This document shows positions 23,767-32,877 of a stretch of 64,000 bases of DNA, piece after piece (positions within the stretch are counted from its first letter, which is position 1; the number at the start of each line of letters is the position of its first letter). The DNA is from Opitutaceae bacterium. GTDB taxonomy: Bacteria > Verrucomicrobiota > Verrucomicrobiia > Opitutales > Opitutaceae. The stretch covers positions 2,814 to 66,813 of the forward strand of contig JAQUYL010000018.1 of NCBI GenBank assembly GCA_028691845.1, given 5' to 3'. The translations under genes and the position numbers were made by a program. Below the pieces are notes generated by a model. The model was not told the origin of the DNA. It did no database searches and saw only the letters and a program-made list of their open reading frames with translations.

Positions 23767-24546
23767 TCAGCCGATAGCGCGCCGCCCCGTTCTTCTGCGC
23801 ATCAAAACGAGAACACCAGCGACGATGCCGGACACTGCCGTAATCCCGGCGGGCTCCGGCACCGTCGTCACCGTCAGCGTCATGCTGCCGACGGTATCCG
23901 GAGAGTGATTATTATCGCCGACGTCGGGATTACCGGTCGTTCCCAACGAGAAAAAGGTAATGAGATCGGTACTGGATCCCGGGGCCAAGACGCTCATGGC
24001 GGTGAGCGTGACGTTGAGGCCGCCCGTCGTATACGACAACGAGCCGGATCCGGGCACGCCCGACGAATAGGCGGGATTGGAGCCTCTCTCGCCGAAAGTC
24101 GATGTCGCCCCGGAAATGACTGAGAAACTGCTGGCTCCCGTGTTCGGCGCGACCGCGCTGATGCGGTTGCGGGCCAGATCCCCATTGAAGAAGAGATTGA
24201 TTCCGATGAAGAAATCGGATCCCGGAGTGTTGTTGCCAATAAATCCGATGACATAGGAACCGGGTGTGGTCAGGTTAATGTTCGGATTGAGCGAGGAATT
24301 GGAATTGGCACTGTTCTTCCATGCCGGTGAATCGACCGAGCCAGTAAACAGATAGATATTGGACACGGAATTCGCGTCGCCCCCGCCGCCGGCCTCCCAT
24401 CCCAGCGTATTCCAGTAGATAGGATTGTTTCAGGCGTCACTTGTATCAGTCGCCCACATCGTTAGCCCGGACAGGGTGAGTTGCGCGCGTAGCGGAACGG
24501 CCGAGATCGCGATGCCAACAGTAAGAAGGGCCATCGTTCGCTTCAT
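23767..24546 (-). pseudogene. PEP-CTERM sorting-domain secreted protein interrupted by an in-frame TGA (24430..24432)
   Basis: ORF 24430..24657 supplies the signal peptide (MKRTMALLTVGIAISAVPLRAQ). ORF 23767..24366 ends with VPEPAGITAVSGIVAGVLVLMRRR (PEP-CTERM). I verified by hand that the two ORFs are in the same frame and are separated only by TGA followed by 21 sense codons (NNPIYWNTLGWEAGGGGDANS). Confidence 0.7.
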
Positions 24547-24831
24547 GGTGCGCGCCACCATCATGTCGTCACTCGTGCTTCTGAAACAATCGTCTGTCAG
24601 ACTCCGCTTCGGATCGACATAATTAACCCAAGACATTCTGGAACAGTCCGCACCCATCCCTTGCTGCTTGCCCTACTCCCCTGTTTGCGGGGGCCCGACC
24701 GCCGCAATCCTCGTTCCGCACCTGCCCGACTCCAGTTTGTTCGCCATATCCGGGCTCAGCGACAATCTCCGTTCTCCCGCCGCAGCTTTAGTCGGCCCAG
24801 GCGGGATGGGTACCCTCTGGCGCCGCTCCGC

Positions 24832-26223
24832 TCATTGCAGCTCGAGCGGCAGACTCTGCCAGCGGGAGGACAGGGCAGTGAGAACCGGGCTCGTTTTGGG
24901 CGGGATCACGTCCTCGCCGGTCTTTAGAGTGTGCGCGGCGGTGAGATTGCCCAGCACGGCGCAATAGTCGCTGTTGACCATTAAACCGATGAGTTCCCCC
25001 GACTGGCTGAACACCAGATCACCCCTTGACGGGGCAAACTCCCCAAATAGACGGGTCACGATCCGGTTGTCCACCTTCACGAACCCGGGATTCTGCGAGT
25101 CAATGCGGAAGGAGGTCTCGCCGTATTTCCCGTCGGTGGCGCGGACCAGGACGGCGTTGGGGAACTTGAACGGATCGGTGGCGAGATTGTAGATCTTCGC
25201 GCCGATAAGGGCCGCCATTGAAGCGTCAACCGGCACACCAACCAGACGCGGATCCAGGGCAAAAAAGCGCAGCTCCTTCACCGGCAGGGTGAACGAACCG
25301 CGGGCCAGGCTGCCGGTGATGAGATCGAAGTCCACCGGTATCTCAATCAGGCTGAACGGCGTGTCGGCGACATGCAGGAGTGCATAGATCTGGCGGCCGT
25401 CATTCACCAACACGGTCATGCAATCCTTCTCGCGGCGGGCGGGGCCGAACAGTCCCGGACGGCGCGTCGAGAGGTTGAGCCCGACGCGATTCACGAGAAA
25501 GTCGCTGAAGATAACGTTGGGATTGATGGGACGGTTGTCGCGGATTTCCTGCGTGAGTTCGCCTGACTTTTCGGCCAGCTGGCCGACTCCCTGGGCGAGC
25601 TGCTGGGTCTGGGCCTGCACCTTCGCCCGTTCCTGCCGCTCAATCTCGATCTGCTGTTTGGCCTCCGTCAGATTGACGGCAAGCAGCTTGTTTTCCTGCT
25701 GGGCCGCGCCGACTGCCGCATTGAGCGCTTCGATGCGCTTGCGGGCCTCCCCATTCTGCTGTTCCAGCCTGGCGAACTCGGCCTTCTGGCGCTCGGCCTC
25801 AGCCCGGCGCTCTTCAATCTCGCGCTGCAATCCGGCCAGCTGCTCCCGGGTCAGTGCGTTCTCCCTTGTCGCCGCGCCGTATTTCTGTTCGAGACCGCGC
25901 ACATCGTCCTGGGTCGCAGCGAGGGTCTCCTGGAGTTTTTCCTGCTGCTGTTGCGCGTTCGTCAGGCTCTGTTCGCGCTGCTGGAGATCCGCCTGCGTGA
26001 TCTGGAGCTGCTGGGACAGCTGGTCACGGGTGTTTTTTTCATCCTCCAGCGAGATGCGCATGAGTTCGACCATCTCGGCATTAGCCGCAGGATCGGCCGT
26101 CGCGGCCTTGGGCGCAGCCGAAGTGAGCTGCGCATGCGAAGGTTCCGCCTTCTCCCAGCGGGTGAGCGCGAGGAGGTTGAGCAGGAGGAAGTCGCAGATA
26201 ATGAGAAGCAGCGTCTTGTTCAT
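24832..26223 (-). CDS. membrane-anchored coiled-coil protein with a MotB/ExbD-like Asp-containing TM helix and a C-terminal beta domain
   Basis: ATG start. The TM helix LLLIICDFLLLNLLAL has an embedded Asp. About 170 aa of Q/E/A/R-rich heptad sequence follows, then a C-terminal domain of about 230 aa ending ...GDLVFSQSGELIGLMVNSDY... Confidence 0.8.
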   Translation of the reverse strand: MNKTLLLIICDFLLLNLLALTRWEKAEPSHAQLTSAAPKAATADPAANAEMVELMRISLEDEKNTRDQLSQQLQITQADLQQREQSLTNAQQQQEKLQETLAATQDDVRGLEQKYGAATRENALTREQLAGLQREIEERRAEAERQKAEFARLEQQNGEARKRIEALNAAVGAAQQENKLLAVNLTEAKQQIEIERQERAKVQAQTQQLAQGVGQLAEKSGELTQEIRDNRPINPNVIFSDFLVNRVGLNLSTRRPGLFGPARREKDCMTVLVNDGRQIYALLHVADTPFSLIEIPVDFDLITGSLARGSFTLPVKELRFFALDPRLVGVPVDASMAALIGAKIYNLATDPFKFPNAVLVRATDGKYGETSFRIDSQNPGFVKVDNRIVTRLFGEFAPSRGDLVFSQSGELIGLMVNSDYCAVLGNLTAAHTLKTGEDVIPPKTSPVLTALSSRWQSLPLELQ

Positions 26224-26244
26224 GGCGCGAAGGGGATCCGGCGC

Positions 26245-27960
26245 TCAAGCCAGCTGGGCGGAATCCATGATAAGCTTGTGCTTGTAGGGCCGCACGTGGC
26301 GGATTTTCACCAGTGCCACGCACACGATGCCAAAGAGGTTCGATGAATAGGCTGCGAGAAGGTTGGCTTCGATGACGCCAAGCACCTGCAGCACCAGCGC
26401 CGTGGCCGTGCCGGCGATGCCGATGTACAGGCCGCCATCGAACAGGTTTTCCTCGTTGTCCATGAGCCGCAGTTTCAGCGAGCTGGGCAGCGTCCGCCGG
26501 TCGATCTCGGATATTTTCAGCAGGCAGATCACATACATGAGAATCTGCACCAGCGCAAAGACGGTGATGGAAAGCACAGTAGACATGTTCATAGTGGCGG
26601 AGGCGTCGGAGGTTGCGGATGAGAGTGCTGAGGTAGCGCCCAGTACGGGAATGACCAGCCGAAGCTGGTATTCCGAAACCGGGGCCGCCTTGAGCAAATA
26701 GGGTTCGGAAAACACAAAGAAGATGAAGGTCAGGATCAGGGCGAGCAGGCCGCTCTTCATCCGCGGCAGGGTGCCAGCCAGCTCGCGGGCGGAGCGTGCG
26801 AGCGGAGCAAAAAGCCGCAAGTCAATCGAGCGCAGCAGCAAAAAGATGCCGGCCAGAAACGCTCCGTATTTGGCCAGCAGCGCCAGCTCAGGGTTGCTCA
26901 GGGCGAAGGCCGCGCCGATCTCGAACACCGCGCCTGTGCCGGGGGTCATCGGCGCCTGCCGTTGCACAAGCTGCTCCACTGCTCCCTGGCCAAAAGTCAG
27001 GGCCTGGTGAAGATTGTCGGCCCCGGTCTTGCCGAAGGCGATGAGGTAACGCGCCACTGCATCCGCCGATCCCGACATGAGCGTCGCGGTGTAGATAACC
27101 GGTAGTTGTTCCGGAACGATGCGCGCCAGATGGGCGAATTGCGCCACAGTGCCGGTGCTGGTTGCAGTGTGCAGCAGTTCCGAAAGCTGCACCCAGTCAA
27201 GGCGTTTGCCGAGCGACAGGATGTCCAGATAGAATTCCTCGATCCCCCCCATTTGACCGGTCGTAATGGCGTCCTCAGCCAAACCGCGGACCTCGCGCTG
27301 CAAGGAAGAGGGGAAATGCCCCTCCTGCCACAGGCAAGCAGTGAGCAGGATGACGGCATCAAGCGGCTGGCCACCAGCGAGGTGCGCGGGCACGAAACGC
27401 TTTGTGGTGGTAAGACCGGCAGTCTTGAGCAGGGTCTGGACGCCAGGCAACCGCGAGACCGACAGGTAAAGCCGCAGGGTTTCCCGCGCCTGCCGGGTCG
27501 CGAGGAATTTCAGAACCGGCTGCGATTCCGTCGCGCCCACGCCGGTCTTGGGTTGCAGGAGCGGTTCGAATACGGCGTCCCATCCGCCCCACGGAATCAT
27601 TTCCGGATGACGGCGACCAAATTCGGCGAGCTGCTGCGCCAGGGCCGGTGCCGCCGGATCTTCGATCATGCGGGCCGCCTCAGCCACGAGGGTAGCCGGA
27701 CCGGGTTTGTCCATCTCCAGCAAGGCGCGACCGAATGCGACCGTGGTAGTCGAGTCGCGCCCGGCCTCCTTTAACAAGGCTGGATTCAAGGATTTGACAT
27801 TGACGGGCAGCAGCCAAGCCAGCCCGAGCAAGGCCACCCCAAGCGCCAGCCAGCCCACCCAGGCAACAGACGATCTATTTCTGCCGGCCGCAGAGGGTAA
27901 AGTTGTTCCTGGAAGCGTCGTCACAGATGAAGGATGAAACAATTTTATTTGCCGCAGCAA
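26245..27960 (-). CDS. polytopic membrane protein with a MotA/TolQ/ExbB-like C-terminal helix pair (tentative)
   Basis: 571-aa ORF with a TTG start, so the start is uncertain. N-terminal TM, a soluble region of about 300 aa, then a C-terminal TM cluster ending FDGGLYIGIAGTATALVLQVLGVIEANLLAAYSSNLFGIVCVALV. Its stop is 21 nt before the next gene. Confidence 0.7.
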   Translation of the reverse strand: MLRQIKLFHPSSVTTLPGTTLPSAAGRNRSSVAWVGWLALGVALLGLAWLLPVNVKSLNPALLKEAGRDSTTTVAFGRALLEMDKPGPATLVAEAARMIEDPAAPALAQQLAEFGRRHPEMIPWGGWDAVFEPLLQPKTGVGATESQPVLKFLATRQARETLRLYLSVSRLPGVQTLLKTAGLTTTKRFVPAHLAGGQPLDAVILLTACLWQEGHFPSSLQREVRGLAEDAITTGQMGGIEEFYLDILSLGKRLDWVQLSELLHTATSTGTVAQFAHLARIVPEQLPVIYTATLMSGSADAVARYLIAFGKTGADNLHQALTFGQGAVEQLVQRQAPMTPGTGAVFEIGAAFALSNPELALLAKYGAFLAGIFLLLRSIDLRLFAPLARSARELAGTLPRMKSGLLALILTFIFFVFSEPYLLKAAPVSEYQLRLVIPVLGATSALSSATSDASATMNMSTVLSITVFALVQILMYVICLLKISEIDRRTLPSSLKLRLMDNEENLFDGGLYIGIAGTATALVLQVLGVIEANLLAAYSSNLFGIVCVALVKIRHVRPYKHKLIMDSAQLA

Positions 27961-27994: not shown

Positions 27995-28585
27995 ATGTTG
28001 CTAAGAATTGTTCACTACAACGAACCCGTGCTCCGTAAAAAGGGCGAGAAGATCGCAGTATTTGACGCTGCCCTGAACCAACTGGCGTGCGACATGATTG
28101 AAACCATGCACGCCTCCGACGGCATCGGGCTGGCGGCCCAGCAGGTCGGCCATCCCATCCATCTGTGCGTGGTGGACCTGAGTCGGGTGGAAAGCGATTT
28201 CGACTGGGCTTTCAACGGCGCACGCCCTCCGTTGGAGCTTTTCATGCCGCTCGTCCTTGTTAACCCCCGGGTCGAAGCAGTACCCCAACCCACCACGGTT
28301 TGCGAGGAAGGCTGCCTGTCCTTCCCAAAAATCCGTGGCGACGTAGTCCGGCCCGACGAAATCGCGGTGGATTTTCAGGATACTGCCGGCAACGTTCATA
28401 CGCTCCGCTGCAACGGCATGTTCGCCCGGTGCATCCAGCATGAGGTCGATCACCTAAACGGTGTGTTTTTCATCGATTCCGGACGGATGGACAAGGCAGT
28501 CCGGGCCAAACTGGAGCCCGCCATCAAAGAGCTTAAAAAACAGACCCAAGAGAGGGCCAGAGCCGCTGCCGCTGCCGCGAAATAG
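27995..28585 (+). CDS. def: peptide deformylase
   Basis: The three PDF motifs are present: GIGLAAQQVG, EGCLSFP, HEVDHLNG. Confidence 0.95.
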   Translation: MLLRIVHYNEPVLRKKGEKIAVFDAALNQLACDMIETMHASDGIGLAAQQVGHPIHLCVVDLSRVESDFDWAFNGARPPLELFMPLVLVNPRVEAVPQPTTVCEEGCLSFPKIRGDVVRPDEIAVDFQDTAGNVHTLRCNGMFARCIQHEVDHLNGVFFIDSGRMDKAVRAKLEPAIKELKKQTQERARAAAAAAK

Positions 28586-30017: not shown

Positions 30018-32330
30018 CTATTTCGATTTCATCACCCAGACCCCGTCCCAGCCGGGACCGGGGGGGGTATCCTTCAAGTATTCACAACGCTGAATGTACG
30101 TCTGACTGAGCTGGTCGCCGGGATGCAGCGCGAGGGCCTCGCGGAACTGGGCAATCGCGCGCCCGAACTCCCCGCTGCGATAGTATTTCAAGCCGCCACG
30201 AAACTGGTTGATGACTTCGGACATGTTGGGGAAGGACTCGTCGGTATGGAAATCGAGCACCTCGTAGACGCCGATCGGCTCCGTCTTGCCCTTGACGACG
30301 ACCTTATCGATCTCGCGCATCCGGTAAGTGCCCTTGAGTTTCCGGCAGGTGAACTCACTGGCGAGAATCTGTGCGTGATATTCCTTGCAGGCACTCTCAA
30401 GACGGGAGGCCAGGTTGACGCCATCACCGATGACCGTGAAGTCCATGCGCTTGGGTGATCCAATGTTGCCCGACACGACGGTGTCCGTGTTGAGCCCGAC
30501 GCCCATGCGGATCGGCTTCTGCCCGCGCTCGTGCCGCCGCTGATTGAGGGCTCGCAACTCGGTAATCATCGCTATCGCTGCCCGTATCGCGCGATCGGGG
30601 TCGTCACCATGCGAAATCGGGATGCCGAATTCGGCCATGACCGCATCGCCGATGAACTTGTCCAGCATGCCGCCCTGCTCGGTGATGCAGTTGACCATGA
30701 TGGAAAAGTACTCGTTTAGCAGCGCGACCGTGCCCTGCGCGCCCAGCTCCTCGGACAGTGTCGTGAACGACCGGATGTCAGAAAACAGCACCGTAGCCTC
30801 GACGCTCTGGCCGCCAAGGATGTCGGCGCCGCCCGCCAGCAGTTTGTCCGCGAGGCCGGGATCCATATAGCGGGACATGGTGGACTTCATGCGTTTCTCG
30901 CTGCTGATGTCCTCGATCATCAGCATGGACCCCAGGCGCTTGCCCTTGAGGCTCACCAGCGGCTGGATGGTCAGGTTGACGCTGAGTTTATCGCCCCCGA
31001 ACTCCATCACTGCATCCATCAGAACATCGCTGGCGCCCGTCTCGCCGGCCTTCTTCAGCCGATCGCCGACCCACTGGTTGGGCCCGGTGAAGAACTCCTC
31101 CGCCAGTCGGTTGAGCACATCCGGCTCCGCGCAACGCAGGATGCGGTAGCCGGCGGCGTTGCAGGTATGGATGCGGCCGTCCTCGTTTAGCGTGATCACG
31201 CCGCTCGACATGCTTTCGAGGATGGACTGGTTGTAATTCCGCATGTTCTGCACGTCGTCGAACAATTTGGCGTTCTCGAGGGCAATCGAAACCTGCGCGG
31301 TAAACGCCCTGAGCCGGGCCTCGTCCTCCGCGGTAAACGGGCCGCCGCGTTTGTTCAGCGCCTGGGTGACGCCTATGACCTTGCCGCTCTTGTTGACGAC
31401 GGGCACGCACAGGATCGAGCGCGTGAAATAACCGGTCTTCTTGTCGAAGGCGGGGTTGAAGCGCAGATCCGCGTAGGCGTGTGGAATGTTGATGGTGCGA
31501 CCCGACTGAAACACGGCGCCGGCGATGCCGACATGATTGGGCAGGCGGATCTGGATCGCGTTCAGGCCCTCACCCACCTCCGACCAGAGTTCGTTTGTCC
31601 TTTCGTTGTTGAGGAAAAGCGTCGAGCGGTCGGCCTTGAGCATGCGGGTGGCCTCGCTCATGACGCGCCGAAGCAGCACGGAAAGCTCGAGTGAGCTGGT
31701 TATGTCCGCCACCAGGTCAAGGAATTCCATCTCCTGCTGGCGCGTCCTTTTCATCCGCTCGATGAACTGCGTGTTTTGCAGGGCCACCGAGGCCTGGAGC
31801 GCCATTGCCTCCAGCAATTCAAGATCCTCGCCGGTAAAAACGCCCGCGCGCTTGTTCAGCGTCTGCACAACCCCGATCACATCGCCGCGAGCTGTCTTCA
31901 CCGGGGCGCAAAGGATCGATTTCGTCGTGAAACCCGTCTTCTGGTCGACGTCGCGATTGAACCGCGGGTCGGCATAGGCATCATTCACAATCTCCCCCCG
32001 GCCCGACTGGAAGACCGCGCCGGCTATCCCCGAGTTGTTCAGGACGCGGATCTCCCGGTTAAGCGTGCCCTGCGCGACTCGGGAGTAGAGTTCATTGGTG
32101 GCAGGATCATTCAGGAAAAGCGTGCCGCGCTCGGCGTGCGTCTCCGCGGCCACCAGATCGACCAGGGTGCCAAGCAATTCATCAAGATTCTCGATCGCGG
32201 CGATGCGCCGCGAGAGCTGCAGCAGCAGATCGCTGCGCCGCAGTTTCGCGCCGAGCGAGTTCAGCGTTTCGCGGGACGGGCGGGAAGCGCCGGAGTGGCG
32301 GGACGAAGGTTCAAGAGAATTGGCGTCCAT
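30018..32330 (-). CDS. class III adenylate/guanylate cyclase with tandem GAF domains, a PAS domain and a C-terminal TPR-like tail
   Basis: Cyclase core VLFSDIRSFTTLSEELG...LDKFIGDAVMAEFG...GLNTDTVVSGNIGS. Two GAF-like blocks (LFLNDPATNELYS..., LFLNNERTNELWSEV...). The ATG at 32330 (MDANSLEPSS) is preferred; the first 92 codons of ORF 30018..32606 are a Cys/Arg-rich overlap of the upstream gene. Confidence 0.85.
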   Translation of the reverse strand: MDANSLEPSSRHSGASRPSRETLNSLGAKLRRSDLLLQLSRRIAAIENLDELLGTLVDLVAAETHAERGTLFLNDPATNELYSRVAQGTLNREIRVLNNSGIAGAVFQSGRGEIVNDAYADPRFNRDVDQKTGFTTKSILCAPVKTARGDVIGVVQTLNKRAGVFTGEDLELLEAMALQASVALQNTQFIERMKRTRQQEMEFLDLVADITSSLELSVLLRRVMSEATRMLKADRSTLFLNNERTNELWSEVGEGLNAIQIRLPNHVGIAGAVFQSGRTINIPHAYADLRFNPAFDKKTGYFTRSILCVPVVNKSGKVIGVTQALNKRGGPFTAEDEARLRAFTAQVSIALENAKLFDDVQNMRNYNQSILESMSSGVITLNEDGRIHTCNAAGYRILRCAEPDVLNRLAEEFFTGPNQWVGDRLKKAGETGASDVLMDAVMEFGGDKLSVNLTIQPLVSLKGKRLGSMLMIEDISSEKRMKSTMSRYMDPGLADKLLAGGADILGGQSVEATVLFSDIRSFTTLSEELGAQGTVALLNEYFSIMVNCITEQGGMLDKFIGDAVMAEFGIPISHGDDPDRAIRAAIAMITELRALNQRRHERGQKPIRMGVGLNTDTVVSGNIGSPKRMDFTVIGDGVNLASRLESACKEYHAQILASEFTCRKLKGTYRMREIDKVVVKGKTEPIGVYEVLDFHTDESFPNMSEVINQFRGGLKYYRSGEFGRAIAQFREALALHPGDQLSQTYIQRCEYLKDTPPGPGWDGVWVMKSK

Positions 32331-32877
32331 GATGTTGTTCAAGTTCGGTGCGCAGCACGGCAATGGTTTCGCGCAGCTGGCGCAGCTCGTCGTTGGCGAC
32401 CTGCCGATGCCGCTCCAGCGCGTCGGCGTGCATTGCCGCCTCGTTCTCCAGTTCCGTGCGCATGAGGACGATGGTTTCGTGCAGCTGGCGGGCCTCGTCG
32501 GCGCCGGCGGCCACCGCCGCCTGCACCTCTTCCTCCTTGGCTGCCTGCAGCCGTTGCAATTCATCGCGCAGCGCCTGGATGGCGTGGTGCAGCTGGCGGA
32601 TCTCATCCCGCGCCGCGGCCACAGCCGCCTGCACGGCGTCGTCCCGACCGGCCTGCACTTCTTCCAGTTTCGTCCGCAGCGCCGCCACGGTCTGCTTCAG
32701 ATCGCGTATCTCGGTCTGCGCCAGGTAAAGCTCATCCTTTTCTCGGGTCGGACCGCCGCGTGCGCTTTGCGCCTCCACGTCTTTCACGGTACGGCAGTGT
32801 CGCGGAAAAGTCCTGTGGTTCGCAAGACGATTTGGAGCGGCCCGGCGCCGCGACCCATGCTCCTTCCCTTCCGCCAT
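32311..32877 (-). CDS. coiled-coil protein built from about 3.7 tandem 36-aa repeats
   Basis: Repeats EIRDLKQTVAALRTKLEEVQAGRDDAVQAAVAAARD / EIRQLHHAIQALRDELQRLQAAKEEEVQAAVAAGAD / EARQLHETIVLMRTELENEAAMHADALERHRQVAND / ELRQLRETIAVLRTELEQ. It overlaps the cyclase start by 20 nt. The exact start is uncertain. Confidence 0.6.
   Translation of the reverse strand: MAEGKEHGSRRRAAPNRLANHRTFPRHCRTVKDVEAQSARGGPTREKDELYLAQTEIRDLKQTVAALRTKLEEVQAGRDDAVQAAVAAARDEIRQLHHAIQALRDELQRLQAAKEEEVQAAVAAGADEARQLHETIVLMRTELENEAAMHADALERHRQVANDELRQLRETIAVLRTELEQHHGRQFS
32320..32712 (-). repeat. 108-nt tandem coding repeat (about 3.7 copies)
   Basis: On the + strand the motif g(c/t)gcagctggcg... recurs at 32371, 32479 and 32587 (108-nt period), with a weaker copy near 32695. 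Confidence 0.8.

What the first reader, a model, noticed from the sequence alone, without database searches (positions are those of the whole stretch)
24832..27960. Tightly coupled membrane-protein pair with stator-like (MotA/ExbB plus MotB/ExbD) signatures in an uncharacterised architecture
Two minus-strand genes are separated by only 21 nt.

Gene A (26245..27960, 571 aa) has one N-terminal TM helix, a soluble region of about 300 aa and a C-terminal TM cluster. The last two helices of that cluster read FDGGLYIGIAGTATALVLQVLGVIEANLLAAYSSNLFGIVCVALV. By eye this resembles the Y-I-G-L-F-G-T...A-x-x-T-x-x-G-L helix hairpin of the MotA/TolQ/ExbB proton-channel family.

Gene B (24832..26223, 463 aa) begins with a single TM helix carrying an embedded Asp (LLLIICDFLLLNLLAL). 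The essential protonatable Asp of MotB, TolR and ExbD sits in the same position. Instead of an OmpA-like or TonB/TolA-interacting periplasmic domain, gene B continues with about 170 aa of Q/E/A/R-rich coiled coil. It ends in a beta-rich domain of about 230 aa containing a trypsin-fold-like strand (GDLVFSQSGELIGLMVNS).

No flagellar, Tol-Pal, TonB, Gld or Zorya partner genes are adjacent. The next gene downstream on the same strand is a PEP-CTERM secreted protein.

If the resemblance is real, this would be an undescribed ion-driven 5:2-type motor coupled to a long coiled-coil effector.
Basis: partly seen in the sequence, partly recalled or inferred. Interest (0 to 1): 0.75.

Follow-up and report, generated by a model that had tools for sequence, protein, structure and literature searches.

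The report
Conserved stator-like membrane protein pair
Two tightly linked genes, conserved across Verrucomicrobiota and never characterised, encode a six-helix membrane protein and a partner with a buried invariant aspartate, a long coiled coil and an HtrA-like head; the pair looks built like an ion-driven stator but shows no detectable homology to one.

Summary
Both ORFs exist with a 21-nt gap. Gene A has six TM helices and a roughly 300-aa helical domain predicted to be periplasmic. Gene B has an N-terminal TM helix with Asp11, a 184-aa coiled coil and a C-terminal beta domain.

Passed tests:
- The pair is syntenic in 89 of 91 fetched loci where gene A was found, including lineages only 26-35% identical.
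- Asp11-Phe12 is invariant in 76/76 gene B orthologues.
- The gene B helix is the most conserved part of that protein, on all faces.
- The gene B C-terminal domain has a chymotrypsin/HtrA fold (Foldseek E 8.5e-6). Its presumed nucleophile is Ser in only 35/76 orthologues.

Failed tests:
- PF01618 hits 1 of 76 family members, at E 0.16.
- No PDB sequence or fold match exists for gene A.
- hhalign against TolQ, ExbB, MotA, ExbD and MotB gives at most 1.7% probability.
- Only a 9-13-residue G-x-x-G-T motif aligns.
- The large domain of gene A lies on the opposite side of the membrane from ExbB's.

The PEP-CTERM neighbour is not conserved and carries an in-frame stop. The 5:2 assembly could not be tested.

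Verdict: an uncharacterised family (at least 636 clusters, at least 590 species) and not a demonstrable MotAB/ExbBD member. A stator-like ion-coupled mechanism is my best hypothesis at about 0.4.

The parts
26245..27960 (-). Gene A: polytopic inner-membrane protein. It is 571 aa from TTG 27960, with likelier starts at GTG 27924 (559 aa) or GTG 27858 (537 aa). It founds an unannotated family.
   Evidence: ORF. There are 849 homologues at 90% clustering and 636 clusters at 50% identity, nearly all about 550 aa. No Pfam, NCBIfam or PADLOC family matches.
27802..27858 (-). Gene A TM1 (VGWLALGVALLGLAWLLPV), poorly conserved and predicted to run in-to-out.
   Evidence: Hydropathy. Conservation is 0.44, at background.
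26893..27798 (-). Gene A soluble all-helical domain, about 302 aa, predicted to be periplasmic. No known fold was detected.
   Evidence: AF2 pLDDT is 82-94 over most of the domain. Foldseek against PDB finds nothing at E<1. PDB profile searches are empty.
26689..26883 (-). Gene A TM2 (26821..26883), a basic cytoplasmic loop, and TM3 (26689..26757) ending in an invariant Glu-Pro.
   Evidence: E385 and P386 (537-numbering) are invariant or nearly so in 76 diverse members.
26518..26586 (-). Gene A TM4, conserved on one helical face (F434, Q438, Y442, C445).
   Evidence: Its entropy helical moment is 0.50, the highest of all TMs.
26302..26487 (-). Gene A conserved core: an amphipathic pre-TM5 segment (LKLRLMDNEENLFD), TM5 (GGLYIGIAGTATALVLQVLGVI) and TM6 (LLAAYSSNLFGIVCVALVKI).
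   Evidence: It is the most conserved part of gene A: TM6 0.77, pre-TM5 0.67 and TM5 0.63, against 0.44 overall. Invariant residues are N468, E469, F473, G476, L477, G480, G483, S506, G510, K518 and R523. It resembles TolQ 139-150, ExbB 142-153 and MotA 206-214 only at motif level.
26224..26244 (-). The 21-nt A-B spacer. In relatives it ranges from a 4-nt overlap to +49 nt.
24832..26223 (-). Gene B: bitopic membrane protein of 463 aa.
   Evidence: ORF. An orthologue follows gene A in 89/91 loci. hhalign to a distant orthologue gives probability 100%, E 6.7e-46.
26149..26223 (-). Gene B N-terminal TM helix (MNKTLLLIICDFLLLNLLALTRWEK). The invariant Asp11 codon is at 26191..26193.
   Evidence: D11 and F12 are invariant in 76/76 orthologues. 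Mean conservation is 0.92 against 0.68 for the whole protein, on all faces (moment 0.13).
25537..26088 (-). Gene B coiled-coil region, residues 46-229. A 20-aa Pro/Ala-rich linker (26089..26148) precedes it.
   Evidence: The AF2 model gives helices 45-121 and 126-229 with pLDDT about 80. Only coiled-coil-type matches appear in Pfam, NCBIfam, PADLOC and PDB.
24904..25530 (-). Gene B C-terminal chymotrypsin/HtrA-fold domain. His284 is at 25372..25374, Asp324 at 25252..25254, the variable 'nucleophile' position 399 at 25027..25029, and the invariant Gly401-Asp402 at 25018..25023.
   Evidence: Foldseek gives 26 PDB hits at E<=1e-3, all PA-clan serine proteases (Deg2, DegQ, HtrA1, DegS, sobemovirus proteases), with TM about 0.45-0.54 per protease domain. 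The triad register comes from hhalign to DegS. Occupancy is H 75/76, D 76/76, and S35/K34/R4/T3 at position 399.

Best explanation
Genes A and B encode the two subunits of one inner-membrane complex that is conserved across Verrucomicrobiota. I propose that it works like a MotAB/ExbBD/TolQR-type stator, as an ion-coupled transducer.

Proposed mechanism:
1. The single TM helix of gene B carries the protonatable Asp11 at mid-membrane.
2. That helix is enclosed by several copies of the conserved TM5-TM6 hairpin of gene A. The small and polar residues G480, G483, T484, S506, T/N507 and G510 lie at the same depth as Asp11.
3. Ion passage via Asp11 drives a relative movement of A and B.
4. The movement passes through gene B's flexible linker and long periplasmic coiled coil to a C-terminal HtrA-like domain.
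5. That domain has lost a conserved nucleophile in about half of the family. It therefore most likely acts as a binding or adaptor head on an envelope target, not as an obligate protease.
6. The 300-aa periplasmic helical domain of gene A would surround or regulate this stalk.

Shown here: the gene pair and its conservation, the invariant buried Asp, the all-face conservation of the gene B helix, the concentration of conservation in TM5/TM6 of gene A, the HtrA fold, and the lack of a conserved catalytic Ser.

Inferred: physical A-B contact, membrane topology, ion conduction, stoichiometry, any movement, and the target.

The pair is not a demonstrable homologue of MotA/ExbB or MotB/ExbD.
For: 1. 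A-then-B order with a 4-nt overlap to a 49-nt gap holds in 89/91 loci, including lineages at 26-35% identity for gene A. E. coli motA-motB overlap by 4 nt, and tolQ-tolR and exbB-exbD are separated by 3-6 nt.
2. Asp11-Phe12 of gene B is invariant in 76/76 orthologues, although the proteins fall to about 30% identity.
3. The gene B TM helix is the most conserved segment of that protein (0.92 against 0.68). It shows no helical periodicity of conservation (moment 0.13), as expected for a helix buried on all sides and unlike one-face packing.
4. Conservation in gene A peaks in pre-TM5, TM5 and TM6. TM1-TM3 sit at background, which suggests an inner and an outer layer of helices.
5. Positive-inside counts give the last hairpin an in-out-in course with a basic cytoplasmic tail, as in MotA TM3/4 and ExbB TM2/3. 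Gene B is N-in with only 3 cytoplasmic residues.
6. The weak alignments that do appear fall on the functionally critical motifs: TolQ 139-YIGLFGTVWGIM, ExbB 142-FVGLFGTVWGIM (the pore Thr) and MotA 206-MVGTFLGIL (Thr209). ExbB ranks 7th and TolQ 45th among about 6,550 non-family ORFs.
7. There is a precedent for Asp-bearing trans-pore helices fused to non-canonical periplasmic effector domains, next to tolQ-like genes, including in Verrucomicrobia (PMC12204202).
8. Gene B has a TolA-like layout of anchor, long helical domain and globular head. The weak TIGR02794 tolA_full hit (E 0.01) is compositional.
Against: - No statistically supported similarity to any stator subunit exists. PF01618 hits 1/76 members at E 0.16 and nothing on the consensus or fragments. 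hhalign gives at most 1.7%. No stator chain appears in the PDB profile searches at E<=10. Foldseek is empty for gene A.
- The decoy-test scores are only 5.1 and 1.8 bits, and MotA ranks 205th.
- Gene A has six TM helices and a large domain predicted to be periplasmic. Known A subunits have 2-4 TMs and a cytoplasmic domain (own knowledge).
- The TM region of the AF2 monomer has low confidence (pLDDT 27-76), so structure neither supports nor refutes the idea.
- An invariant intramembrane Asp can also be a purely structural contact.
- The covariation signal (B10 with A482) comes from 8 loci that look closely related, so it may be one evolutionary event.
- No multimer model, no experiment and no conserved partner genes point to an output.
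Confidence: 0.4

Rival explanations
1. The pair is a static (non-motor) envelope complex. Gene B is a membrane-anchored, coiled-coil-extended HtrA-like protease or pseudoprotease that acts in periplasmic protein quality control, processing or signalling. Gene A is its polytopic partner or sensor, using its 300-aa periplasmic domain. Asp11 is an intramembrane assembly contact, not an ion-binding site.
For: HtrA/DegS-type fold with His284 and Asp324 retained, and Ser at the aligned nucleophile position in 35/76 orthologues including this window. No homology to any motor subunit. The large domain of gene A is predicted to be periplasmic, on the same side as gene B's domains. By analogy from my own knowledge, FtsEX-EnvC and DegS/RseA-type systems use membrane partners to control degenerate or regulated periplasmic hydrolases.
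Against: The nucleophile position is Lys or Arg in 38/76 orthologues, and no Ser is invariant anywhere in the domain. No PDZ domain or Trypsin_2 profile hit is found. The gene B TM helix is far more conserved than the supposed catalytic domain, and on all faces, which is unusual for a mere anchor. The strongest constraint in gene A is also intramembrane.
Confidence: 0.3
2. Genes A and B are true but extremely diverged homologues of MotA/ExbB/TolQ and MotB/ExbD/TolR, sharing common ancestry and not only the mechanism.
For: The only alignable pieces hit the signature motifs in the right helices and in the right order: G-x-x-G-T in the in-to-out helix, T-x-x-G-[LI] in the out-to-in helix, and Asp in the partner helix. 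The gene order is the same.
Against: Every profile and fold test is negative or insignificant. The Thr-to-Thr spacing is 23 residues here against 33 in TolQ. TM number and domain sidedness differ. Short Gly/Thr-rich TM motifs recur by convergence.
Confidence: 0.15
3. Gene A is itself a channel or transporter (for ions, lipids or a small solute), and gene B is an accessory or regulatory subunit.
For: Six TM helices with invariant polar or charged residues spread across the bilayer: E385, Q438, Y442, T484, S506, D474 and K518.
Against: No transporter family or fold matches. This does not explain why the gene B TM helix with its Asp is the most conserved element of the pair.
Confidence: 0.1
4. 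The gene B N-terminal helix is only a cleavable signal peptide, and gene B is a soluble periplasmic coiled-coil protein unrelated to gene A in function.
For: It has the n-region/h-region layout, and a possible A-L-T site lies before Arg22 (sequence).
Against: Signal peptides are poorly conserved and avoid Asp in the h-region. Here 76/76 orthologues keep D11-F12, and the helix is the most conserved part of the protein. Tight A-B coupling across the phylum also argues against it.
Confidence: 0.03

Closest known systems
MotAB / PomAB, ExbBD, TolQR 5:2 ion-driven stator units (Pfam PF01618 with PF02472, PF13677 or OmpA)
   Same: Adjacent, often overlapping A-then-B genes. The B subunit is bitopic, N-in, with an invariant intramembrane Asp. 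The last two helices of the A subunit run in-out-in and carry G-x-x-G-T and T/S-x-x-G motifs at the depth of the Asp. The C-tail is cytoplasmic and basic.
   Different: No profile, sequence or fold similarity. Gene A has six TMs against 3-4. Its large domain is periplasmic, not cytoplasmic. The hairpin is 10 residues shorter. Gene B has only 3 cytoplasmic residues and no plug, OmpA-like domain or ExbD-fold domain. Instead it has a coiled coil plus a trypsin-fold domain.
GldLM / PorLM (the type IX secretion and gliding motor)
   Same: It is the precedent for a 5:2 motor that sequence searches do not link to MotA/ExbB, with a B-type subunit that forms a long periplasm-spanning dimer (own knowledge; reviewed in PMC9389320, listed).
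   Different: GldL has 2 TMs and a conserved Glu, and GldM carries an Arg instead of an Asp (own knowledge). There is no sequence or fold match here: GldL and GldM chains are in the PDB, and none was hit.
TPH-vWA force transducers beside tolQ-like genes (Mol Biol Evol 2025, PMC12204202)
   Same: An ExbD/TolR-like trans-pore helix with the conserved Asp is fused through a linker to a non-canonical periplasmic effector domain. These are reported in Verrucomicrobia and are so far only modelled.
   Different: Their partner is a recognisable TolQ homologue and their effector is a vWA domain. Here the partner is an unrelated 6-TM protein and the effector is a coiled coil plus an HtrA-like domain.
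HtrA / DegP / DegQ / DegS (S1C, PA clan) periplasmic serine proteases
   Same: The gene B C-terminal domain has the chymotrypsin fold (Foldseek probability 1.0, E down to 8.5e-6). It keeps His and Asp, with an Asp-to-Ser spacing of 75 residues as in DegS, and a GELIG-like strand. DegS is also anchored by an N-terminal TM.
   Different: No Trypsin_2 or PDZ profile hit. The aligned nucleophile is Ser in only 35/76 orthologues, and Lys or Arg in 38. An invariant Gly-Asp replaces the GNSGG motif. A 184-aa coiled coil is inserted between the anchor and the domain.
TolA / TonB periplasmic force transducers
   Same: Three-part layout: N-terminal TM anchor, long extended domain, C-terminal globular head. 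There is a weak tolA_full hit at E 0.01.
   Different: No SHLS/His motif and no TonB/TolA C-terminal fold. The TM carries an Asp like the B subunits. The hit is compositional.

Membership tests
MotA/TolQ/ExbB proton-channel family (PF01618), for gene A | Significant match to the PF01618 profile | tested here: not met
   No hit at E<=10 for the query. One of 76 diverse members hits, at E 0.16. No hit for the family consensus or for 8 isolated C-terminal fragments.
MotA/TolQ/ExbB proton-channel family (PF01618), for gene A | Sequence or profile similarity to stator A subunits of known structure (MotA, PomA, ExbB, TolQ, ZorA, GldL) | tested here: not met
   Profiles A1 and A3 against all PDB sequences find no stator chain at E<=10. 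hhalign against E. coli TolQ, ExbB and MotA gives 0.2-1.7% probability over 9-16 residues. The comparison used single-sequence templates only; a full HHpred library was not available.
MotA/TolQ/ExbB proton-channel family (PF01618), for gene A | Protomer fold similar to MotA/ExbB | tested here: inconclusive
   Foldseek against PDB finds nothing (best E 1.9). The TM part of the monomer model has pLDDT of only 27-76.
MotA/TolQ/ExbB proton-channel family (PF01618), for gene A | C-terminal in-out-in TM hairpin with conserved Thr and Gly lining the pore, and a cytoplasmic C-tail | tested here: met
   This holds at motif and topology level only. G480, G483, S506 and G510 are invariant, T484 is at least 90% conserved, and position 507 is Thr in the consensus. 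The weak alignments land on TolQ T145, ExbB T148 and MotA T209.
MotA/TolQ/ExbB proton-channel family (PF01618), for gene A | Large soluble domain on the cytoplasmic side; 3-4 TM helices | tested here: not met
   Six hydropathy-predicted TMs. The 300-aa domain is predicted periplasmic by the family-wide K+R distribution. This is a prediction, not an experiment.
MotA/TolQ/ExbB proton-channel family (PF01618), for gene A | Pentamer enclosing a dimer of the partner's TM helices | not testable with these tools
   No multimer prediction is available. There is only indirect support from the all-face conservation of the gene B helix.
MotB/ExbD/TolR (PF13677, PF02472, OmpA PF00691), for gene B | Single N-terminal TM helix with an invariant protonatable Asp, encoded directly after the A gene | tested here: met
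   D11 is present in 76/76 orthologues. A-then-B adjacency holds in 89/91 loci.
MotB/ExbD/TolR (PF13677, PF02472, OmpA PF00691), for gene B | Profile match to the ExbD, MotB-plug or OmpA families | tested here: not met
   No such Pfam or NCBIfam hit in the query or in 20 diverse orthologues. hhalign against E. coli ExbD gives 0.1% and against MotB 0.5%.
MotB/ExbD/TolR (PF13677, PF02472, OmpA PF00691), for gene B | Periplasmic ExbD-fold or peptidoglycan-binding OmpA-like domain | tested here: not met
   The periplasmic part is a coiled coil plus a chymotrypsin-fold domain.
HtrA/DegP family serine proteases (S1C), for the gene B C-terminal domain | Chymotrypsin (PA clan) double beta-barrel fold | tested here: met
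   Foldseek gives 26 PDB hits at E<=1e-3, and the top 40 are all PA-clan proteases. The domain has pLDDT about 80-90.
HtrA/DegP family serine proteases (S1C), for the gene B C-terminal domain | Conserved His-Asp-Ser catalytic triad | tested here: not met
   His is present in 75/76 and Asp in 76/76. The position aligned to DegS Ser201 is S35/K34/R4/T3, and no Ser is invariant in the domain. The register comes from a weak hhalign plus matching spacing, so it is provisional.
HtrA/DegP family serine proteases (S1C), for the gene B C-terminal domain | Trypsin_2 profile match and C-terminal PDZ domain(s) | tested here: not met
   No protease or PDZ Pfam family appears in the query or in 20 orthologues. 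The PDB profile search gives only coiled-coil hits.
TPH-effector force transducers (PMC12204202) | Asp-bearing trans-pore helix plus linker plus effector, adjacent to a recognisable tolQ-like (PF01618) gene | tested here: not met
   The helix, linker and effector layout is present. The adjacent gene is not TolQ-like, and the effector is not vWA.

The most novel reading that the evidence does not exclude
Genes A and B define a previously unrecognised, Verrucomicrobiota-wide class of ion-driven membrane motor or transducer. Sequence does not link it to MotA/ExbB, as is the case for GldLM. An oligomer of a six-TM subunit with a periplasmic cage domain would turn or lever a dimeric Asp-bearing axle. 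That axle continues as a periplasmic coiled coil ending in a degenerate HtrA-like head. The result would be a new way of delivering proton-motive energy to the cell envelope.
Probability: 0.3. Interest if true: 0.85.

Novelty: new variant of a known kind. Interest (0 to 1): 0.6.

Why it matters
Only a handful of machine types are known to carry inner-membrane ion-motive energy into the periplasm or outer membrane: MotAB, ExbBD-TonB, TolQRA, GldLM, AglRQS and ZorAB. All were found through phenotype or through homology to MotA/ExbB.

A phylum-wide, strongly constrained gene pair with the hallmarks of such a unit would widen that repertoire. The hallmarks here are a buried invariant Asp on a fully conserved single helix, a partner whose constraint is concentrated in one TM hairpin, and a long periplasmic stalk. 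The pair has no sequence link to the known units and a new output domain.

It would also give Verrucomicrobiota envelope biology a concrete, testable target. Verrucomicrobiota are abundant in soil, freshwater and the gut and are poorly studied genetically.

Even if the pair is not a motor, it defines two large families without any Pfam or NCBIfam model. It also adds an HtrA-fold domain that has drifted between Ser and Lys/Arg at its nucleophile position.

Tried and rejected
**Single-sequence and per-member family scans**
- Pfam, NCBIfam and PADLOC on both proteins gave nothing for gene A and coiled-coil noise for gene B (SMC, LmuB, JetC, TolA).

**Searches against solved structures**
- PDB profile searches with A1, A2, A3 and A4 gave nothing relevant.
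- Foldseek of the gene A model gave no hit, and the TM part of the model is unreliable.

**Building a reference profile**
- I tried to build a diverse MotA/ExbB reference profile.
- tblastn of the E. coli proteins against all fetched DNA found none.
- PDB phmmer gave too little diversity.
- Two viral-contig scans found no relatives.
- I therefore relied on Pfam's own PF01618 HMM and on single-sequence hhalign.

**Covariation**
- A-B mutual information is dominated by phylogeny. Only the B10-A482 pair is suggestive, and it comes from 8 loci that look closely related.

**Looking for an experimental handle**
- I hoped Akkermansia carried the pair, since L091 lies beside PilM and Amuc_1100-like genes. 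The clade turned out to be unnamed Verrucomicrobiota MAGs.

**Other dead ends**
- The UPF0242 (chlamydial) similarity of the gene B N-terminus is below threshold, and the literature adds nothing.
- The PEP-CTERM neighbour is rejected as part of the system. It is absent in a relative and interrupted by a stop codon.
- The promoter and terminator scan was uninformative.
- By eye I considered and rejected rhomboid, presenilin/prepilin-peptidase, CPBP, FtsX/MacB, Wzz/PCP and exosortase for gene A. None has Pfam support, and the motifs are missing.

Full report
**1. The observation**

The window carries two minus-strand ORFs exactly as described. Gene A is 26245..27960 (571 aa from a TTG) and gene B is 24832..26223 (463 aa), with 21 nt between them.

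Hydropathy gives gene A one N-terminal TM helix, about 300 soluble residues and five more TM helices. Gene B has a single N-terminal TM helix, MNKTLLLIICDFLLLNLLAL, containing Asp11.

The start of gene A is uncertain. An identical NCBI protein (P0001, Opitutaceae MAG) is called from GTG 27858 (537 aa). The residues upstream (GRNRSSVAW) align with the conserved N-termini of homologues, which favours GTG 27924.

Divergently upstream lie peptide deformylase and a cob(I)alamin adenosyltransferase. Downstream lies a PEP-CTERM-type ORF.

**2. A conserved, coupled gene pair**

Gene A has 849 and gene B 1,789 hits in the 90%-clustered protein collection. The top 120 of each are 63-72% identical, unannotated Opitutaceae/Opitutae proteins without precomputed Pfam domains.

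An exhaustive HMM search with the gene A alignment found 636 clusters at 50% identity (294 at E<=1e-30), nearly all about 550 aa and matched end to end. A scan of species-representative genomes found at least 590 species with a relative.

In a 66%-identical relative the local order is PhoH, GAF-cyclase, DUF6580, Cob adenosyltransferase and def, then divergently A and B, then a Na/Ca exchanger. The PEP-CTERM and PstS-like genes of the window are missing there.

I looked up five distant gene A representatives (26-35% identical). In each, gene A is followed at -4 to +33 nt by a 474-524-aa protein with no Pfam hit. One of these aligns to the gene B profile with probability 100% and E 6.7e-46.

Gene A could be located in 91 fetched loci. 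In 89 of them the next ORF begins MN[KR]TLLL..[CVI]DF.

The window's PEP-CTERM ORF is in frame with an upstream signal peptide but is interrupted by a TGA at 24430..24432. It is not part of the unit.

**3. Gene A**

No Pfam, NCBIfam or PADLOC family matches gene A. I built a diverse alignment of 76 members, 26-50% identical to the query.

- The invariant residues are P18, G163, E385, F434, Q438, N468, E469, F473, G476, L477, G480, G483, S506, G510, K518 and R523, in 537-numbering.
- Conservation is concentrated in the pre-TM5 segment (0.67), TM5 (0.63) and TM6 (0.77), against 0.44 overall.
- TM1-TM3 sit at background, and TM4 is conserved on one face only.
- Family-wide K+R counts are 1.8 for the N-terminus, 3.0 for loop 2-3, 5.0 for loop 4-5, 5.7 for the C-tail and 0.2 for loop 5-6. 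They predict N-in, C-in, and a periplasmic 300-aa domain.
- AlphaFold2 models that domain confidently as all-helical (pLDDT 82-94) but models the TM region poorly.
- Foldseek against PDB finds nothing (best E 1.9).

**4. Is gene A a MotA/ExbB/TolQ protein?**

- PF01618 does not hit the query at E<=10.
- It hits 1 of 76 members, at E 0.16.
- It hits neither the family consensus nor isolated C-terminal fragments.
- Profiles of gene A against every PDB sequence, which include MotA, PomA, ExbB, TolQ, GldL and ZorA, return no stator chain at E<=10.
- hhalign against E. coli TolQ, ExbB and MotA gives 0.2-1.7% probability.
- The only aligned piece is GLYVGLxGTvxSL against TolQ 137-149.

I also ran a calibrated test with an HMM of the hairpin against 6,640 ORFs from all fetched DNA plus the E. 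coli proteins. Among the non-family ORFs, ExbB ranks 7th (5.1 bits), TolQ 45th (1.8 bits) and MotA 205th. The alignments fall on ExbB 142-FVGLFGTVWGIM, TolQ 139-YIGLFGTVWGIM and MotA 206-MVGTFLGIL. These are the segments carrying the pore threonines according to established knowledge of these motors.

It is statistically insignificant, and membership is not supported. The architecture also differs: six TMs, a periplasmic large domain, and a hairpin 10 residues shorter between the two Thr positions.

**5. Gene B**

Only coiled-coil noise appears in the family libraries and in PDB sequence searches. hhalign to ExbD and MotB gives 0.1-0.5%.

The AF2 model has mean pLDDT 77. It shows a TM helix (2-25), a disordered linker, two long helices (45-121 and 126-229) and a beta domain (247-434).

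Foldseek places the beta domain in the chymotrypsin/HtrA fold. There are 26 PDB hits at E<=1e-3, the top 40 are all PA-clan proteases, and TM is about 0.45-0.54 per protease domain.

hhalign to DegS, DegP and DegQ is weak but gives a register in which DegS H96, D126 and S201 correspond to H284, D324 and S399. The Asp-to-Ser spacing is 75 residues in both.

Across 76 orthologues His is present in 75 and Asp in all 76. Position 399 is Ser in 35, Lys in 34, Arg in 4 and Thr in 3. No Ser is invariant in the domain, and Gly401-Asp402 is invariant. The domain is therefore not an obligate serine protease. At least half of the family must use it non-catalytically.

**6. The TM helix of gene B**

D11 and F12 are invariant in 76/76 orthologues. 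The helix has a mean top-residue frequency of 0.92, against 0.68 for the whole protein. It has the lowest helical periodicity of conservation of any TM in the pair, 0.13. This is what a helix buried on all sides would show, as an axle inside a ring would be. A one-face anchor would not show it.

Counting from the membrane boundaries puts D11, gene A T484 and gene A G510/T507 at similar depth (inference).

All 8 loci where Cys10 becomes Ile or Val also change gene A residue 482. Those loci look closely related, so this is weak evidence.

**7. Interpretation**

The data establish a phylum-wide two-subunit membrane module whose strongest constraint is intramembrane and centred on a buried carboxylate.

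The most economical mechanism is ion coupling of the MotAB/ExbBD type, with output through gene B's coiled coil to an HtrA-like binding head. I put this at about 0.4.

There is a precedent for Asp-bearing trans-pore helices fused to unusual periplasmic effectors, described for TPH-vWA proteins next to tolQ-like genes, including in Verrucomicrobia (PMC12204202). A recent survey of MotAB homologues covers only proteins detectable by MotA homology (PMC12505986).

Rivals:
- a static HtrA-like (pseudo)protease complex with a membrane regulator (about 0.3)
- gene A as a transporter (about 0.1)
- gene B's helix as a cleaved signal peptide (about 0.03)

True remote homology to MotA/ExbB is a sub-case of the main hypothesis (about 0.15).

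The decisive test is a multimer model or structure.

**8. Verdict**

The pair is best filed as an uncharacterised family that may be a new variant of the stator-type ion-coupled transducers. Interest is 0.6. It would rise to about 0.85 if a ring-and-axle assembly or PMF dependence were shown.

Noticed in passing
window 23767..24564 (-): The PEP-CTERM ORF (23767..24366) and an upstream signal-peptide ORF (start ATG at 24564, MMVARTMKRTMALLTVGIAISAVPLRAQ...) are in the same frame, separated by an in-frame TGA at 24430..24432. This could be a pseudogene, a sequencing error or read-through. The gene is absent beside the A-B pair in a 66%-identical relative.
   Followed up: partly
window 27858..27960 (-): The gene A start codon is ambiguous. 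The candidates are TTG 27960, GTG 27924 and GTG 27858 (the NCBI call). Conservation of 'G.RS..W' upstream of TM1 favours 27924.
   Followed up: partly
window 24832..26223 (-), residues 6-156; orthologues in alignment A4: The gene B N-terminus (TM plus start of the coiled coil) weakly matches the chlamydial family UPF0242 (PF06785) in 7 of 20 orthologues. The best E is 9e-4, below the gathering score. Chlamydiae share the PVC superphylum, but the hit may be compositional.
   Followed up: partly
L087:4920-5933 and L088:290-1303: In one distant lineage a 276-aa TM plus coiled-coil protein and a 49-aa ORF directly precede gene A on the same strand. A Peptidase_M23 gene lies just downstream on the opposite strand. 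These may be lineage-specific extra components.
   Followed up: no
L092:8222-11199: In another distant lineage gene B is followed on the same strand by an AAA_23/SMC_N-type ATPase (433 aa) and two unannotated genes (249 and 308 aa).
   Followed up: no
window 27995..28585 (+); L001, L089: Peptide deformylase, divergently transcribed from gene A, is kept in that position both in Opitutaceae and in a distant lineage (L089). This hints at a housekeeping neighbourhood.
   Followed up: no
window 30018..32877 (-): The 862-aa ORF listed at 30018..32606 probably merges two genes. One is a roughly 155-aa repeat-rich coiled-coil protein in the frame of ORF 32311..32877. The other is a GAF-GAF-PAS adenylate/guanylate cyclase of about 772 aa, as called in the relative L001.
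   Followed up: no
L091:9418-11617: A verrucomicrobial relative carries the A-B pair about 1.3 kb upstream of a PilM/FtsA-like gene and an Amuc_1100-family (type IV pilus-associated) gene. The clade is not Akkermansia: a close relative, P0408 (88% identical), lies on a 6.5-Mb contig.
   Followed up: partly
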